Sequence record: KF620435
Direction: 5' to 3' (one strand)
Origin: Shigella phage pSb-1
Length of the DNA stretch: 64,000 bases
Part shown: one piece after another, positions 57,781-59,608 of the stretch
Layout of the letters: each line of letters opens with the position of its first letter
How positions within the stretch are numbered: position 1 is the first letter of the stretch
Program-made: the position numbers and the translations under genes
Notes under the pieces: generated by a model
What the model was told of the DNA's origin: nothing
What the model saw: the letters and a program-made list of their open reading frames with translations, nothing else
Databases searched by the model: none

Positions 57781-58050
57781 GTGATAAAAACGGTGGTGAC
57801 AAGCCGCCAGAGTAACAACAACAACCGAACCAGTGTGCAGGAATACTCTCCCCTGTGCATTGGTTCAACTGAGGCTAATATGAACAAATTTACTATTCAC
57901 TGGCTCAATGGGAAGGTTAGTTCTTTCATGGGTGGAGAACCCGTTGAAGGAAAGAAAGCATTTCACATTGAATCAGAAGGCTGCAAAATCTTAGTACCAT
58001 ATGTTTGGTATAAAGATGGTGAAGTAGAAGCATTAAAAAAGAGTAGTTAA
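57781..58050 (+). CDS. hypothetical protein (89 aa)
   Basis: Last plus-strand ORF before the non-coding region. Confidence 0.3.
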   Translation: MIKTVVTSRQSNNNNRTSVQEYSPLCIGSTEANMNKFTIHWLNGKVSSFMGGEPVEGKKAFHIESEGCKILVPYVWYKDGEVEALKKSS

Positions 58051-58222
58051 TATCGTGAAGGGTTCTGTTAGAATCCTTTGAGATAGGAACTCCTATCATA
58101 ACCTTTCTTAACTTAATCTTTGCCGTATGGCACTGACGCTAGGGGTGGCCCCCCATCCGTCAGTCAGACTATTTTAAGAATGGGTTATCACAGAAAATGT
58201 AAAGCAACATTCGGGTTAATCA

Positions 58223-58250
58223 ATGGCCTCTCCCTATAGAGGCCATTTCT
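58223..58250 (+). terminator. hairpin terminator candidate (ATGGCCTCT-CCCTAT-AGAGGCCAT + TTCT)
   Basis: 9-10 bp perfect stem followed by T-rich tract. Confidence 0.5.
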
Positions 58251-58263
58251 GAATCTTAGGCTA

Positions 58264-58291
58264 TATCCCAAAGGTTAGTATCTTTGGGATA
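58264..58291 (+). other. second strong hairpin (ATCCCAAAG-GTTAGTAT-CTTTGGGAT)
   Basis: 9-bp perfect inverted repeat. Confidence 0.5.
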
Positions 58292-58450
58292 AGGCTTCAG
58301 ATCCCTTATCAACTAACGCTCATGTTGAGCACAACATTAACTAATAATGTCGGATAGTTCATTACGCTATTCATTCAGCATCGAGATGTTAGGTCTTACA
58401 TGTAATATAGGGTATAAAGGGAGGATTCGTCCCCTCCTCCTATTATAATG

Positions 58451-58520
58451 GTCGGGGTAGCACGTAGGCATGTGCAGCTGGTCGCTACTTCTCTCGCTGG
58501 TTCGAATCCAGCCCCTGACC
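58451..58520 (+). tRNA. tRNA-like element 1; anticodon arm not foldable by eye
   Basis: 7-bp acceptor GTCGGGG/CCCTGAC, D-arm GCAC-GTAGGCAT-GTGC, T-arm GCTGG-TTCGAAT-CCAGC; only 20 nt between D and T arms with no 5-bp stem. Confidence 0.35.
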
Positions 58521-58789
58521 TACTGACATCCTATCAATGAGTACATTAGGCTAACGTGCGGAGGTTTACACTGTAGCCGGTGTAGGTAGAGAAGACGGCA
58601 GGGTAGCTACCTGTGCTTAGTGTACTCTTTGATAGGTTGTACTATCAAAGTCCAGACGATATCTGAGTGACTATAAAAACAGATGGAGCCAGGTGGAATC
58701 CCTGGCAATTAATTCAAAGTAGCATTGCACTAATCCATCTCGGAATTCAAAGGCCAACCATGGAGCAGTGCTACTTTGAATTAGAAGAA

Positions 58790-58905
58790 TTATGACGGGT
58801 CTGGTGAAGTAGATGGGGTTCGATTCCCTCCGGTGGATAAAACCACTAGCGTGCTTGGTGCACGAATAAGACTTAATACTGGTGGTTCGATTCCATCCCC
58901 CGTTA
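58790..58905 (+). ncRNA. tRNA-like region with two T-arm motifs; boundaries unresolved
   Basis: GGGG-TTCGATT-CCCT at ~58815..58829 and GGTGG-TTCGATT-CCATC at 58881..58897; 13-bp inverted repeat just upstream (58711..58781). Confidence 0.25.
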
Positions 58906-59100
58906 TCCGAAGTCGCCAGGTACTTATGGCAAACGGGTAGTAACGAACTAGTCATTCGTCAAACGCCCACCCAATTATGAGTCAGCAAGAACGCCTTCAC
59001 TTAAACTTAAACAAAAAAGCTTAACGCAATAATTATGTAGGGGTATGTAAGGATTGCGAAGAAGGAGCCAGTTAAAGCCTGGCATGACTCACCTATTTAT

Positions 59101-59185
59101 GCCCACTTAGCTCAATGGTAGAGCGCAGGAAAGCTTCGAGAGAACAAGGTGTCTGTGGTCACTGGTTCGAATCCAGTAGTGGGTA
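59101..59185 (+). tRNA. tRNA-like element 3 (type II length); anticodon arm not foldable by eye
   Basis: Acceptor GCCCACT/AGTGGGT, D-arm GCTC-AATGGTA-GAGC, T-arm ACTGG-TTCGAAT-CCAGT; 35-nt middle with no canonical 5-bp stem. Confidence 0.4.
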
Positions 59186-59412
59186 CTCATTAATAGAGAA
59201 CATAGTCCTGATTGCATTGCACTCTAAAGACAATGCCGGTGAGACAGTCCGGCACTCTAGTTATTGTAAACATGCCTATCGATATGAGTATGAGCAGACT
59301 ATAATGCTCAAATACAGTTATCTATTATCGGACTATCAATCCTGTTTGCTGGTACAAGCACCAGTGGTAATAGTTAACTGGCCTAGCCTCGTTAGCTGCG
59401 TTAAAGCTACTA

Positions 59413-59438
59413 AGTCCCTCTTCGGAGGGACTTTTTTA
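59413..59438 (+). terminator. rho-independent terminator
   Basis: AGTCCCTC-TTCG-GAGGGACT followed by TTTTTT. Confidence 0.6.
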
Positions 59439-59608
59439 TTTGAGTATTAATAATTGGACATTCACTATGATTGACCTAATCTCTACTCCGTATGCCTATG
59501 AGGTAACGGATAACCGAGGGCACAAGTACTTGGTATTTGCAGGTAGCGTAGCCTATAACAACGCAGTCATGTTTAAGTACAAACTCAAACCACTCTATGA
59601 GGCTAATA

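What the first reader, a model, noticed from the sequence alone, without database searches (positions are those of the whole stretch)
58440..59190. tRNA-like elements with intact acceptor, D and T arms but no recognisable anticodon arm
Four T-arm signatures (GGTTCGAATCC / GGTTCGATTCC) lie in a 750-nt ORF-free region. Two (58451..58520 and 59101..59185) have perfect 7-bp acceptor stems and 4-bp D-stems, yet the sequence between D and T arms (20 nt and 35 nt) cannot form any 5-bp anticodon stem by eye. They could be degenerate tRNAs, tRNAs damaged by the same indel errors seen in the coding genes, or tRNA-like RNAs with another role.
Basis: seen in the sequence. Interest (0 to 1): 0.6.

Follow-up and report, generated by a model that had tools for sequence, protein, structure and literature searches.

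The report
tRNA-shaped phage RNAs carrying non-anticodon cargo
The four tRNA-like signatures are real, conserved genes for three tRNA-shaped RNAs that cannot read codons; one carries, in place of its anticodon arm, a 30-base module that is shared by three unrelated groups of enterobacterial phages and whose job is unknown.

Summary
The window is an N4-like coliphage (Gamaleyavirus). The finding lies in the non-coding gap between the gp47- and gp48-like genes.

- **Observation confirmed.** GGTTCGAWTCC occurs four times, all on the + strand, against 0.03 expected. ARAGORN finds no tRNA in the window.
- **Three RNAs, not four.**
  - 58450-58521: a compact 72-nt tRNA-like RNA.
  - 58794-58904: a 111-nt multi-hairpin RNA that holds both middle T-loops.
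  - 59101-59185: a genuine tRNA body with a 30-nt module (59126-59155) where the anticodon arm should be.
- **Not a sequencing error.** The 85-nt form is nearly identical in phages HK2 and Bas96. Its D arm, module and T arm are 93% identical in about 130 Kuttervirus genomes, and the acceptor stems covary.
- **The module travels.** The same module sits on a different cloverleaf scaffold in lambdoid phages. The central arm of that scaffold is hypervariable (68 distinct inserts).
- **Best reading.** These are non-decoding carrier RNAs, processed like tRNAs, whose central arm is the working part. The target of that arm is unknown.
- **Not excluded.** The first element could be a decaying pseudo-tRNA.
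- **In passing.** Sister phages, but not this window, also carry a tmRNA-like tag template in the same gap.

The parts
58450..58521 (+). M1: a 72-nt compact tRNA-like RNA. It has an 8-bp acceptor stem (one G.U), a D arm (4-bp stem with 8-nt loop, or 6-bp with 4-nt), a 17-nt central arm (AGCUG / GUCGCUA / CUUCU, 3 of 5 pairs in this window), a 3-nt variable region and a canonical T arm.
   Evidence: Fold of the window copy and the St11Ph5 copy. The alignment of 7 copies is 98% identical. The main variable sites are 2 nt in the 5' strand of the central stem and a G.U/G-C switch in the acceptor; two copies also carry an A.C mismatch in the acceptor, and the PW8 copy has four further changes. ARAGORN calls the relatives tRNA-Ala(cgc) but not the window copy. 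Rfam gives only 26.7 bits, to tRNA-Sec.
58526..58640 (+). S1: a long irregular hairpin. In sister phages it sits directly 5' of a tmRNA-like tag template. In the window that template is missing and the sequence jumps at about 58640-58651.
   Evidence: Fold z-score -4.45, with 0 of 200 shuffles as stable. Alignment A2 shows the missing block. Positions of the tag reading frames in relatives.
58710..58784 (+). S2: a long, near-perfect hairpin between the tRNA-like modules.
   Evidence: Fold of 58650-58795 gives z-score -4.54, with 0 of 200 shuffles as stable. It is present in relatives at 72-96% identity.
58794..58904 (+). M6/M7: one 111-nt multi-hairpin RNA. An outer 6-bp stem (58794-58799 with 58899-58904) abuts a 3' T arm (58881-58897). 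Inside are four hairpins, one of which is the second T-loop hairpin (58815-58829).
   Evidence: RNAalifold on 9 phages predicts 30 pairs. Three pairs show compensatory double changes: two in the outer stem and one in hairpin 58832-58847. Identity is 93-99% where the flanking gp47 gene is 83-86%.
59101..59185 (+). M9v: an 85-nt tRNA body. It has a 7-bp acceptor stem with G1.U72, U8, a D arm with G18 G19, a T arm GGUUCGAAUCC and discriminator A. It occupies the same locus as a canonical tRNA-Ile(AAU) in sister phages.
   Evidence: Rfam tRNA 54 bits with a 24-nt insertion. The canonical allele scores 65 bits at the same flanks. Acceptor covariation: 5 of 7 pairs changed on both sides, and all 63 acceptor-stem cells paired.
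59126..59155 (+). The 30-nt cargo module CAGGAAAGCUUCGAGAGAACAAGGUGUCUG, in place of the anticodon arm. A 4-bp stem (CAGG/UCUG) closes a 22-nt interior.
   Evidence: Eight sequence variants on two unrelated scaffolds, in Gamaleyavirus, Kuttervirus and lambdoid phages. The stem pair G-C switches to G.U consistently. On its own the module is not thermodynamically stable (z +1.4 and +0.2).
59412..59440 (+). A strong intrinsic terminator that closes the non-coding array before the next gene.
   Evidence: A 9-bp G+C-rich stem followed by a run of T.

Best explanation
The four T-arm signatures mark three genes for tRNA-shaped RNAs that do not decode. They sit in a mosaic array of non-coding RNA genes between the gp47- and gp48-like genes of an N4-like Gamaleyavirus.

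Each RNA keeps the parts of a tRNA that host enzymes recognise: an acceptor-like stem stacked on a canonical T arm and, in two of them, a D arm with G18 G19. In each, the anticodon arm is replaced by something else.
- 59101-59185 carries a conserved 30-nt module.
- 58794-58904 carries four hairpins.
- 58450-58521 carries a short, imperfect 17-nt arm.

Proposed mechanism (inferred, not shown):
1. The array is transcribed as one precursor that ends at the terminator at 59412-59440.
2. The host tRNA-maturation machinery (RNase P at the 5' side, 3' trimming and CCA addition) cuts out the tRNA-shaped units.
3. The tRNA body acts as a stable, correctly processed carrier, and the central arm is the working part.
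4. That arm most likely binds or decoys a host protein or RNA rather than reading a codon.

Shown here: the elements are real, conserved, structurally constrained, non-canonical, and exchanged between phage families. Not shown: expression, processing, aminoacylation, and the binding partner.
For: 1. **Non-random.** Four T-loop motifs on one strand against 0.03 expected.
2. **Not canonical tRNAs.** ARAGORN finds none. Infernal aligns M9v only by skipping 24 nt in the anticodon region.
3. **Not an error.** HK2 and Bas96 have the same 85-nt gene with an identical module.
4. **Structural selection.** Across 9 sequences the acceptor stem has 5 of 7 pairs changed on both sides with every acceptor-stem cell paired. 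The whole cloverleaf is 97.9% paired, against 33-48% when the partners are slid.
5. **Sequence selection on the cargo.** The D arm, module and T arm are 93% identical in about 130 Kuttervirus genomes, although the acceptor stem is completely different. There the element directly follows tRNA-Ser in the tRNA cluster.
6. **The module moves between scaffolds.** The same 30-nt module sits on a different cloverleaf scaffold in HK620-like lambdoid phages and in prophages of 243 of 5426 E. coli genomes.
7. **The central arm is a swappable position.** That scaffold has near-invariant arms, a covarying closing stem (78 of 82 unique records with at least 6 of 7 pairs, and more than 15 stem variants) and 68 distinct inserts of 26-165 nt in the anticodon-arm position.
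8. **Conservation above background.** The RNA blocks are 93-99% identical to phages whose gp47 gene is only 83-86% identical.
9. **Some units look ready for tRNA-type maturation.** Several related modules encode a 3' ACCA.
Against: - No expression or processing data exist for any of these elements.
- Every module is missing from some sister phages, so none is essential.
- M1 in this window has 2 mismatches in its 5-bp central stem. There is no compensating change in any of the 7 copies, and the PW8 copy carries further damaging changes. This fits relaxed constraint.
- The module has no convincing stable fold of its own, and its variants are too few to prove an internal structure.
- No target was found. 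There is no antisense match in the window and no similarity to core E. coli genes.
- The high identity between phage families could partly reflect recent transfer rather than long-term selection.
Confidence: 0.6

Rival explanations
1. They are decaying tRNA pseudogenes. On this view they are neutral leftovers of a phage tRNA cluster that is being shuffled and lost by recombination between the repeated T-arm sequences, and they have no function of their own.
For: - Modules are present or absent in a mosaic among close relatives.
- M1 has 0, 1 or 2 mismatches in its central stem in different phages with no compensation, and the PW8 copy is eroded.
- M9v looks like a recombinant. It has the acceptor and T arms of the resident tRNA-Ile and a foreign interior.
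Against: - A pseudogene should not keep a 30-nt interior at 93-100% identity across three phage families and two scaffolds while the acceptor stem is rewritten with all pairs preserved.
- The non-coding blocks are more conserved than the adjacent protein-coding gene.
- All tertiary-interaction nucleotides of the tRNA core are retained in M9v (sequence).
Confidence: 0.2
2. They are working, decoding tRNAs of unusual build. M9v would be a tRNA with a short intron or an expanded anticodon loop. M1 would be a compact tRNA-Ala(CGC), as ARAGORN calls it in relatives.
For: - ARAGORN calls tRNA-Ala(cgc) for M1 in St11Ph5, Bp4, ECBP1, PW8 and PD205.
- GenBank annotates the Bas96 copy of M9v as tRNA-Val, and the Det7 copy as having a 'possible 15 bp intron'.
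- The Rfam tRNA model gives M9v 54 bits.
Against: - M9v has no 7-nt loop with U33 flanked by a 5-bp stem in any register.
- From general knowledge, known bacterial tRNA introns are self-splicing group I introns of hundreds of bases, and E. coli has no tRNA splicing endonuclease. Neither point was tested here.
- The different annotations (Val, Leu, Pro, OTHER) for one sequence show that the anticodon call is arbitrary.
- M1 lacks the G3.U70 pair that defines alanine identity. It also has G32 and U37, no position 26 and a 3-nt variable region, and it falls below the Rfam tRNA threshold.
Confidence: 0.07
3. They are parts or relics of a phage system that acts on trans-translation. Sister phages carry a tmRNA-like tag template in the same gap. 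The anticodon-less tRNA-like units could then be its tRNA-like domains, or decoys for SmpB or the ribosome, in the way the CDS-less tmRNA of mycobacteriophage DS6A inhibits host tmRNA.
For: - Tag reading frames (ANDDVVLMAA, ANEEAYLMVA, ANEEMYLAVA, ANDNTFLAVA, ANDNAYLAVA) with a conserved upstream sequence occur in 34 loci from Gamaleyavirus, lambdoid and Ackermannviridae phages.
- They give weak hits to the permuted-tmRNA and beta-tmRNA models, 33.4 bits with E = 1e-4.
- The stop codon lies in a covarying hairpin.
- In lambdoid phages the module-bearing scaffold always lies about 250 nt downstream of the tag.
- CDS-less tmRNA forms, and the DS6A precedent, are described in PMC11915505.
Against: - The window itself has no tag template.
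- By inspection of the sequences, none of the acceptor stems has the G3.U70 pair needed for alanylation.
- The tRNA-like units are closed cloverleaves, not the split 5'/3' arrangement of a tmRNA.
- M1 and the tag occur independently of each other among phages.
- No Rfam tmRNA hit reaches its threshold, and ARAGORN finds no tmRNA.
Confidence: 0.12
4. The odd anticodon regions are sequencing or assembly errors in this window.
For: The window-specific differences are small. They are 2 substitutions in M1 and one G-to-A change in the D loop of M9v relative to HK2 and Bas96.
Against: The non-canonical architecture itself is shared with many independent genomes. The differences are substitutions, not indels. 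I gathered no evidence of indel errors; my one suspicion, in the gene after the terminator, turned out to be a different gene arrangement.
Confidence: 0.01

Closest known systems
The 'degenerate tRNA of undetermined specificity' at the end of the tRNA cluster of ViI-like phages (Kuttervirus: CBA120, Det7, Vi01, SFP10)
   Same: It is the same gene core. Window 59108-59177 is 93% identical to it, covering the D arm, the 30-nt module and the T arm. It is noted in PMC3184105 and in the Det7 GenBank record.
   Different: The acceptor stem is entirely different, although fully paired. In the window the element occupies the locus of a tRNA-Ile gene in an N4-like podovirus rather than following tRNA-Ser in a 157-kb myovirus. 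It has only ever been noted as a pseudogene, never studied.
Canonical phage tRNA genes (Rfam RF00005), for example the tRNA-Ile(AAU) of Bp4, ECBP1, PW8 and UE-S5b at the same locus
   Same: Identical flanks, acceptor stem and T arm, and the same tRNA core nucleotides.
   Different: There is no 5-bp anticodon stem with a 7-nt loop, and the D arm differs. ARAGORN rejects it.
tmRNA tRNA-like domains, and CDS-less tmRNA forms such as that of mycobacteriophage DS6A
   Same: A phage-encoded tRNA mimic with acceptor and T arms and no anticodon. A tmRNA-like tag template lies in the same gap in sister phages.
   Different: There is no G3.U70 pair. A full D arm is present. The element is a closed cloverleaf rather than paired 5' and 3' ends. 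No Rfam tmRNA hit occurs in the window.
STnc100 / PasD prophage sRNAs (Rfam RF02076; bioRxiv 10.64898/2026.05.13.724894)
   Same: They occupy the same genomic niche as the lambdoid scaffold that carries the module, downstream of antiterminator Q. They are described as having a shared fold with different seed regions. The STnc100 consensus has the same outline, UGGUG-AAU-hairpin...hairpin-CACCA.
   Different: No hit reaches threshold on the module-bearing scaffold. Any link to the window element is by analogy only.
Engineered 'tRNA scaffold' for expressing RNAs in E. coli, in which the anticodon arm is replaced by the RNA of interest (recalled from memory: Ponchon and Dardel 2007)
   Same: The same design: the acceptor, D and T arms are kept for stability and processing, and the cargo is grafted where the anticodon arm was.
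   Different: That is a laboratory construct. Here the arrangement is natural, and its purpose is unknown. This is a resemblance, not a test.
T4 stable RNAs species 1 and 2 (rnaC, rnaD) in the T4 tRNA cluster (recalled from memory)
   Same: Small stable RNAs of unknown function, encoded among phage tRNA genes and matured with them.
   Different: No sequence relationship was tested. No Rfam model was hit.

Membership tests
tRNA (Rfam RF00005), element 59101-59185 | Score at or above the curated gathering threshold (29 bits) | tested here: met
   54 bits, E = 7.8e-09. The score comes from the acceptor, D and T arms only.
tRNA (Rfam RF00005), element 59101-59185 | A 5-bp anticodon stem with a 7-nt loop, U33 and a readable anticodon | tested here: not met
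   Infernal inserts 24 nt for 11 model positions. ARAGORN finds no gene. The best stem is 4 bp closing 22 nt.
tRNA (Rfam RF00005), element 59101-59185 | A 7-bp acceptor stem, D arm with G18 G19, and T arm with the T-loop, all maintained by selection | tested here: met
   5 of 7 acceptor pairs are changed on both sides and all stay paired. The D and T arms are conserved.
tRNA (Rfam RF00005), element 58450-58521 | Score at or above the gathering threshold, and a canonical cloverleaf | tested here: not met
   No RF00005 hit. The best hit is 26.7 bits to tRNA-Sec, whose threshold is 47. ARAGORN is negative in the window. There are 3 of 5 central-stem pairs, no position 26, G32 and U37.
tRNA-Ala (ARAGORN's call for relatives of 58450-58521) | The G3.U70 pair in the acceptor stem, the major alanine identity element (established knowledge) | tested here: not met
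   Position 3:70 is U-A in all 7 copies.
tmRNA (RF00023, RF04321) | A tag reading frame with resume codon and stop | tested here: not met
   None in the window. It is present in 34 related loci. Alignment A2 shows the window lacks that block.
tmRNA (RF00023, RF04321) | A tRNA-like domain made from the paired 5' and 3' ends, with G3.U70 and no D stem | tested here: not met
   The window elements are closed cloverleaves with D stems and no G3.U70. There are no tmRNA hits in the window.
Intron-containing tRNA | A group I intron, or a bulge-helix-bulge motif with a matching splicing enzyme | tested here: not met
   The net insertion is only about 13 nt, and there is no group I intron hit in Rfam. 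That E. coli lacks a tRNA splicing endonuclease is general knowledge and was not tested here.
STnc100 / PasD sRNAs (RF02076) | Score at or above the gathering threshold (47 bits) | tested here: not met
   The only hit in the window is 23.4 bits at 59358-59443, driven by the terminator. There is no hit on the tRNA-like elements.
Proposed family: tRNA-shaped carrier with the 30-nt module | The module CAGGA-D-AG-Y-UUCG-RR-AGAACAAGGUG-Y-CUG in the anticodon-arm position of a four-way cloverleaf | tested here: met
   The window copy matches. There are 8 module variants in 24 unique contexts on two scaffolds.
Proposed family: tRNA-shaped carrier with the 30-nt module | Expression as a discrete, processed, CCA-ended RNA | not testable with these tools
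   No transcript data were available. Several relatives encode ACCA after the acceptor stem; the window copy has A then CUC.

The most novel reading that the evidence does not exclude
Enterobacterial phages of at least three unrelated groups (N4-like podoviruses, ViI-like myoviruses, lambdoid temperate phages) share and exchange a class of tRNA-shaped carrier RNAs. Their anticodon-arm position holds interchangeable cargo, a natural counterpart of the laboratory tRNA scaffold. The cargo arms would be specificity modules, acting as decoys or guides for a host factor or defence. In many phages the carriers travel together with a phage-encoded tmRNA-like tag template. The window's 85-nt RNA would be one such carrier with a widely distributed cargo.
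Probability: 0.3. Interest if true: 0.85.

Novelty: new variant of a known kind. Interest (0 to 1): 0.62.

Why it matters
Phage tRNA genes are usually explained by codon supply or, more recently, by escape from host enzymes that cut tRNAs. These elements fit neither explanation, because they keep the tRNA body and discard the anticodon.

If the body serves as a processed, stable carrier for other RNA modules, then phage 'pseudo-tRNAs' that annotation pipelines discard may be a reservoir of functional small RNAs. The shared 30-nt module would point to a host target that matters to very different phages of E. coli, Salmonella and Klebsiella.

The question is directly testable. HK2, Bas96 (from the BASEL collection), HK620 and Det7 are cultured phages.

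The tmRNA-like tag template and the hypervariable cloverleaf scaffold found in relatives were not found in Rfam or in the papers searched. They deserve their own study.

Tried and rejected
- **ARAGORN** on the window and 16 related loci found no tRNA in the window and no tmRNA anywhere.
- **Rfam**, at gathering and at permissive thresholds, gave nothing beyond tRNA for the elements. Weak microRNA, snoRNA and CRISPR-repeat hits were dismissed as chance.
- **A pattern scan of 185,579 species-representative genomes** for the module gave two hits, in a Spirulina contig and a Bacteroidaceae MAG. Neither has a tRNA context, and about this many are expected by chance, so there is no evidence of a host origin.
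- **A 15-mer scan of IMG/VR** was mostly chance hits and had to be filtered by context.
- **An antisense target of the module** within the 64-kb window was not found. An RNA-duplex energy scan timed out with no result.
- **Kink-turn, T-loop, UUCG-tetraloop and CsrA-site (CAGGA)** readings of the module were considered by eye only. None fits all 8 variants, so they are left as leads.
- **The frameshift suspicion.** I suspected a frameshift in the gene after the terminator, as support for the 'indel error' idea. The alignment showed a different small-ORF arrangement and mis-chosen coordinates on my side, so no conclusion follows.
- **The P22 small RNA P22E**, upstream of the holin gene, does not contain the lambdoid scaffold.
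- **Pas sRNA papers** give no sequences, so identity of PasD with the scaffold could not be tested.
- **The tmRNA database paper's** text-held supplements list no phage names.
Full report
**Where the window comes from.** BLAST of 58000-59500 against GenBank phages places the window in the N4-like genus Gamaleyavirus (St11Ph5, Bp4, ECBP1, HK2, PW8, G7C and others), at 82-95% identity in pieces. The finding lies in the non-coding gap between the gp47-like gene and the gp48-like gene. The virion RNA polymerase gene converges on this gap from the other strand. No record holds the whole gap in the window's arrangement.

**The observation.** GGTTCGAWTCC occurs four times in 64 kb, all on the + strand, at 58499, 58817, 58884 and 59164. 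Dinucleotide-preserving shuffles give 0.03 on average, and none of 100 reaches four.

ARAGORN finds no tRNA or tmRNA in the window. At Rfam's curated thresholds the only hit in the whole window is tRNA at 59101-59185, at 54 bits. The alignment covers the acceptor, D and T arms and skips 24 nt where 11 central positions of the model belong. A permissive scan adds only a sub-threshold tRNA-Sec match (26.7 against 47 bits) at 58450-58520.

Mechanical ORFs of 94 and 111 aa overlap the region. The 111-aa frame is interrupted by stop codons in all 14 relatives that carry the anchor sequence.
- The stems contain G.U pairs.
- The region is non-coding rather than ORF-free.
- The two middle T-loops belong to one structure.

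**Element 59101-59185 (M9v).**
- *Allelic to a normal tRNA.* In Bp4, ECBP1, PW8 and UE-S5b the same flanks hold a canonical 74-nt tRNA-Ile(AAU), at 65 bits, with the same acceptor stem and T arm. St11Ph5 has the locus deleted.
- *Found in independent genomes.* The 85-nt form is in HK2 and Bas96 with an identical 30-nt interior, and with a compensated acceptor change (GCCCACU/AGUGGGU against GUCCACU/AGUGGAC). This rules out a sequencing artefact.
- *Shared with an unrelated phage family.* BLAST of the 85 nt alone finds 150 records. Positions 8-77 (D arm, interior, T arm) are 93% identical in about 130 Kuttervirus genomes (Det7, Vi01, SFP10, CBA120-like). There the element is the last gene of the tRNA cluster, 2 nt after tRNA-Ser. 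It is annotated 'pseudo tRNA ... possible 15 bp intron'. [quoted passage not shown]
- *Selected as a tRNA shape.* The Kuttervirus acceptor stem (UGCUUCA/UGAAGCA) shares almost nothing with the window's, yet it is fully paired. On an alignment of nine sequences, 5 of 7 acceptor pairs show changes on both sides and every acceptor-stem cell is paired. The whole cloverleaf is 97.9% paired, against 33-48% when the 3' partners are slid by 1-3 columns.
- *Intact tRNA core.* U8, A14, G18 G19, A21, the T-loop and discriminator A are all present (sequence).
- *No anticodon arm.* The interior forms only a 4-bp stem (CAGG with YCUG, switching between G-C and G.U) that closes 22 nt. No 7-nt loop with U33 between five pairs exists in any register.

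**The 30-nt module is a unit of its own.** A scan of IMG/VR for its core found it in a lambdoid prophage without any tRNA T-loop. Follow-up showed the same module on a different four-way scaffold, with this layout:
- a closing stem GUGGUG/CACCAC;
- a D-like hairpin GCGCA-GGCUGA-UGCGC;
- the module;
- a T-like hairpin GCCGG-AGAUCAGCR-CCGGC.

This scaffold lies between the Q antiterminator gene and the holin gene of HK620. It is also in Klebsiella phage ZC2 and in prophages of 243 of 5426 complete E. coli genomes.

Across both scaffolds there are eight module variants, with consensus CAGGA-D-AG-Y-UUCG-RR-AGAACAAGGUG-Y-CUG. The search pattern fixed 17 of those positions, so that conservation is partly imposed. 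The earlier, unconstrained BLAST hits agree with it.

**The scaffold carries many other cargos.** Among 82 unique records:
- 78 have at least 6 of 7 closing-stem pairs;
- there are more than 15 different compensated stem sequences;
- the anticodon-arm position holds 68 distinct inserts of 26-165 nt.

Rfam 15 has no model that hits this scaffold. STnc100 has a similar outline. A 2026 preprint describes STnc100 and PasD as prophage sRNAs near Q with a common fold and different seed regions. I could not test whether they are the same family.

**Element 58450-58521 (M1).** Seven copies are 98% identical. In St11Ph5 the sequence folds into a clean compact cloverleaf: an 8-bp acceptor, a D arm, a 5-bp central stem with loop GUCGCUA, a 3-nt variable region and a T arm (z = -3.2). 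ARAGORN calls it tRNA-Ala(cgc) there.

The identity is not credible, for four reasons:
- Position 3:70 is U-A, not G.U.
- Position 32 is G and position 37 is U.
- Position 26 is missing.
- No copy reaches the Rfam tRNA threshold.

The recurrent variable sites are two bases in the 5' strand of the central stem. They read AA (perfect stem) in three phages, AU (one mismatch) in three, and CU (two mismatches) in the window only. Nothing compensates on the 3' strand. The acceptor stem switches between G.U and G-C at one pair, and two copies carry an A.C mismatch at the next pair. The PW8 copy has further damaging changes.

M1 is therefore a conserved tRNA-like gene whose central stem is under weak constraint. 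It may be a carrier with a trivial arm, or a slowly decaying relic.

**The two middle T-loops (58794-58904).** RNAalifold on nine phages gives one 111-nt structure. A 6-bp outer stem (GACGGG/CCCGUU in the window, GGUGGG/CCCACU in St11Ph5, with two pairs changed on both sides) directly follows a canonical T arm, as an acceptor stem would. It encloses four hairpins. One of them is the other T-loop hairpin, and another shows a compensated G-C to A-U change. This block is 93-99% identical to phages whose gp47 gene is only 83-86% identical to the window's.

**The gap as a whole.** A scan of 16 related loci finds at least 12 different T-loop-bearing modules, 3 to 8 per phage, in a presence/absence mosaic. 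Several end in an encoded ACCA. Between them lie long hairpins. The window's 58521-58650 and 58650-58795 fold with z-scores of -4.45 and -4.54. A strong terminator at 59412-59440 closes the array.

**What it most likely is.** The data fit tRNA-shaped, non-decoding RNAs. In each, the acceptor/T-arm helix (and in two of them the D arm) is kept, and the central arm is free to carry something else. The mechanism is inferred from established knowledge of what RNase P, the 3'-trimming enzymes and the CCA-adding enzyme recognise. On that basis:
1. The units are cut out of a precursor like tRNAs.
2. They are stabilised by the tRNA fold.
3. The central arm does the work.

The cross-family conservation of the 30-nt module argues that it binds a specific partner common to E. 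coli, Salmonella and Klebsiella hosts. I could not identify the partner. There is no antisense site in the window, no similarity to core E. coli genes and no stable fold of the module alone. A CAGGA motif resembling CsrA sites is noted only as a lead.

**Rivals.**
- *Decay of tRNA genes* explains the mosaic and the state of M1. It does not explain the module's conservation on two scaffolds.
- *Decoding tRNAs with an intron or an expanded loop* fail the structural tests.
- *A role in trans-translation* is suggested by what sister phages carry (next paragraph). The window lacks the tag template, and no stem has the alanine identity pair.
- *Sequencing error* is excluded for the architecture.

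**Noticed in relatives.** Sister Gamaleyaviruses (St11Ph5, Bp4, ECBP1, UE-S5b, Bas96 and others), HK620-like lambdoid phages and Ackermannviridae share a block that resembles the messenger part of tmRNA.
- It has a conserved upstream sequence ending in AUAAAU, followed by a 10-codon frame: ANDDVVLMAA, ANEEAYLMVA, ANEEMYLAVA, ANDNTFLAVA or ANDNAYLAVA.
- There are synonymous differences between copies, and a UAA stop lies inside a covarying hairpin.
- It scores 33.4 bits (E = 1e-4) against the permuted-tmRNA model, below threshold. ARAGORN does not call it.
- In lambdoid phages the module-bearing scaffold lies about 250 nt downstream of it.
- The window, HK2, PW8 and G7C lack this block. In the window the sequence jumps at about 58640-58651.
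- The tmRNA database paper reports 79 phage tmRNAs and CDS-less forms. I found no mention of these particular phages.

**Verdict.** The 85-nt element has been seen before only as an annotated pseudo-tRNA. The new points are its conservation, its allelic replacement of a working tRNA gene, and the portability of its module. I rate it a new variant of a known kind (phage tRNA-like RNAs), of above-average interest, with function unproven.

Noticed in passing
L002:2131-2234 (Bp4); also L001, L003, L004, L006, L060:1298-1334 (HK620), L017:265 (Det7), L062 (T765). Absent from the window, where the sequence jumps at about 58640-58651.: A tmRNA-like messenger block in sister phages and in lambdoid and Ackermannviridae phages. 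It has a conserved upstream sequence, a 10-codon tag frame (ANDDVVLMAA, ANEEAYLMVA, ANEEMYLAVA, ANDNTFLAVA, ANDNAYLAVA) and a stop codon in a covarying hairpin. It gives sub-threshold hits to tmRNA_permuted and beta_tmRNA, and ARAGORN does not call it. The tags end in MAA, AVA or MVA instead of the LAA of E. coli ssrA.
   Followed up: partly
L060:1520-1605 (HK620), L023, L061, L062, and more than 120 IMG/VR contigs (L116-L223): A cloverleaf-like scaffold in enterobacterial phages and prophages, with near-invariant arms (GUGGUG-AAUGCGCAGGCUGAUGCGCG ... GCCGGAGAUCAGCRCCGGC-CACCAC). Its closing stem covaries and its central arm is hypervariable (68 distinct inserts of 26-165 nt). No Rfam family hits it. 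It may be related to STnc100 / PasD.
   Followed up: partly
window 58905-59100: This is among the most conserved blocks of the gap: 96-99% identical in ten of eleven relatives (two of them over only about two-thirds of the block) and 88% in St11Ph5, including phages whose gp47 gene is 83-86% identical. The fold is only mildly stable (z = -1.8). Its function is unknown; it could be a promoter or processing region for the downstream tRNA-like gene.
   Followed up: partly
window 59290-59440: A candidate small RNA. A TATAAT hexamer at 59300-59305 is followed about 130 nt later by the strong terminator at 59412-59440. The region 59186-59445 folds with z = -3.4. There is a weak STnc100 hit (23.4 bits) driven mostly by the terminator.
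   Followed up: no
window 58526-58640 and 58710-58784: Two long hairpin structures between the tRNA-like units (z = -4.45 and -4.54). The first is the counterpart of the hairpin that precedes the tag template in relatives.
   Followed up: partly
L002:3109-3182, L003:3113-3186, L004:3148-3221, L007:2150-2223: The canonical allele at the M9v locus is a tRNA-Ile with anticodon AAU. From general knowledge, an A at position 34 is unusual for a bacterial-type tRNA-Ile. A neighbouring module in the same phages is called tRNA-Cys(ACA). Both suggest unusual decoding or modification.
   Followed up: no
L002:2549-2664 (Bp4) and the equivalent in St11Ph5, ECBP1 and UE-S5b: A module of about 116 nt ending in an encoded ACCA. 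Its acceptor stem covaries (UACCAGU/ACUGGUA against UAUCAGU/ACUGAUA). Its interior contains UUUGGACUAAGUGUG, which from memory resembles the conserved GGACUAAGCAUGUAG near the 3' end of E. coli tmRNA. It could be a tag-less mini-tmRNA. It is not present in the window.
   Followed up: no
window 59115-59450 (+) and 58671-58955 (-): Mechanical ORFs of 111 and 94 aa overlap the RNA genes. The 111-aa frame carries stop codons in every relative checked, so it should not be annotated as a protein. Some GenBank records of relatives do annotate small hypothetical proteins across this gap.
   Followed up: yes
window 59115 and 58488-58489: Window-specific point differences. There is an A instead of G in the D loop of the 85-nt RNA (position 15, which normally pairs with position 48), and CU instead of AA or AU in the central stem of the 72-nt RNA. 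They could be real variants or base-call errors.
   Followed up: no
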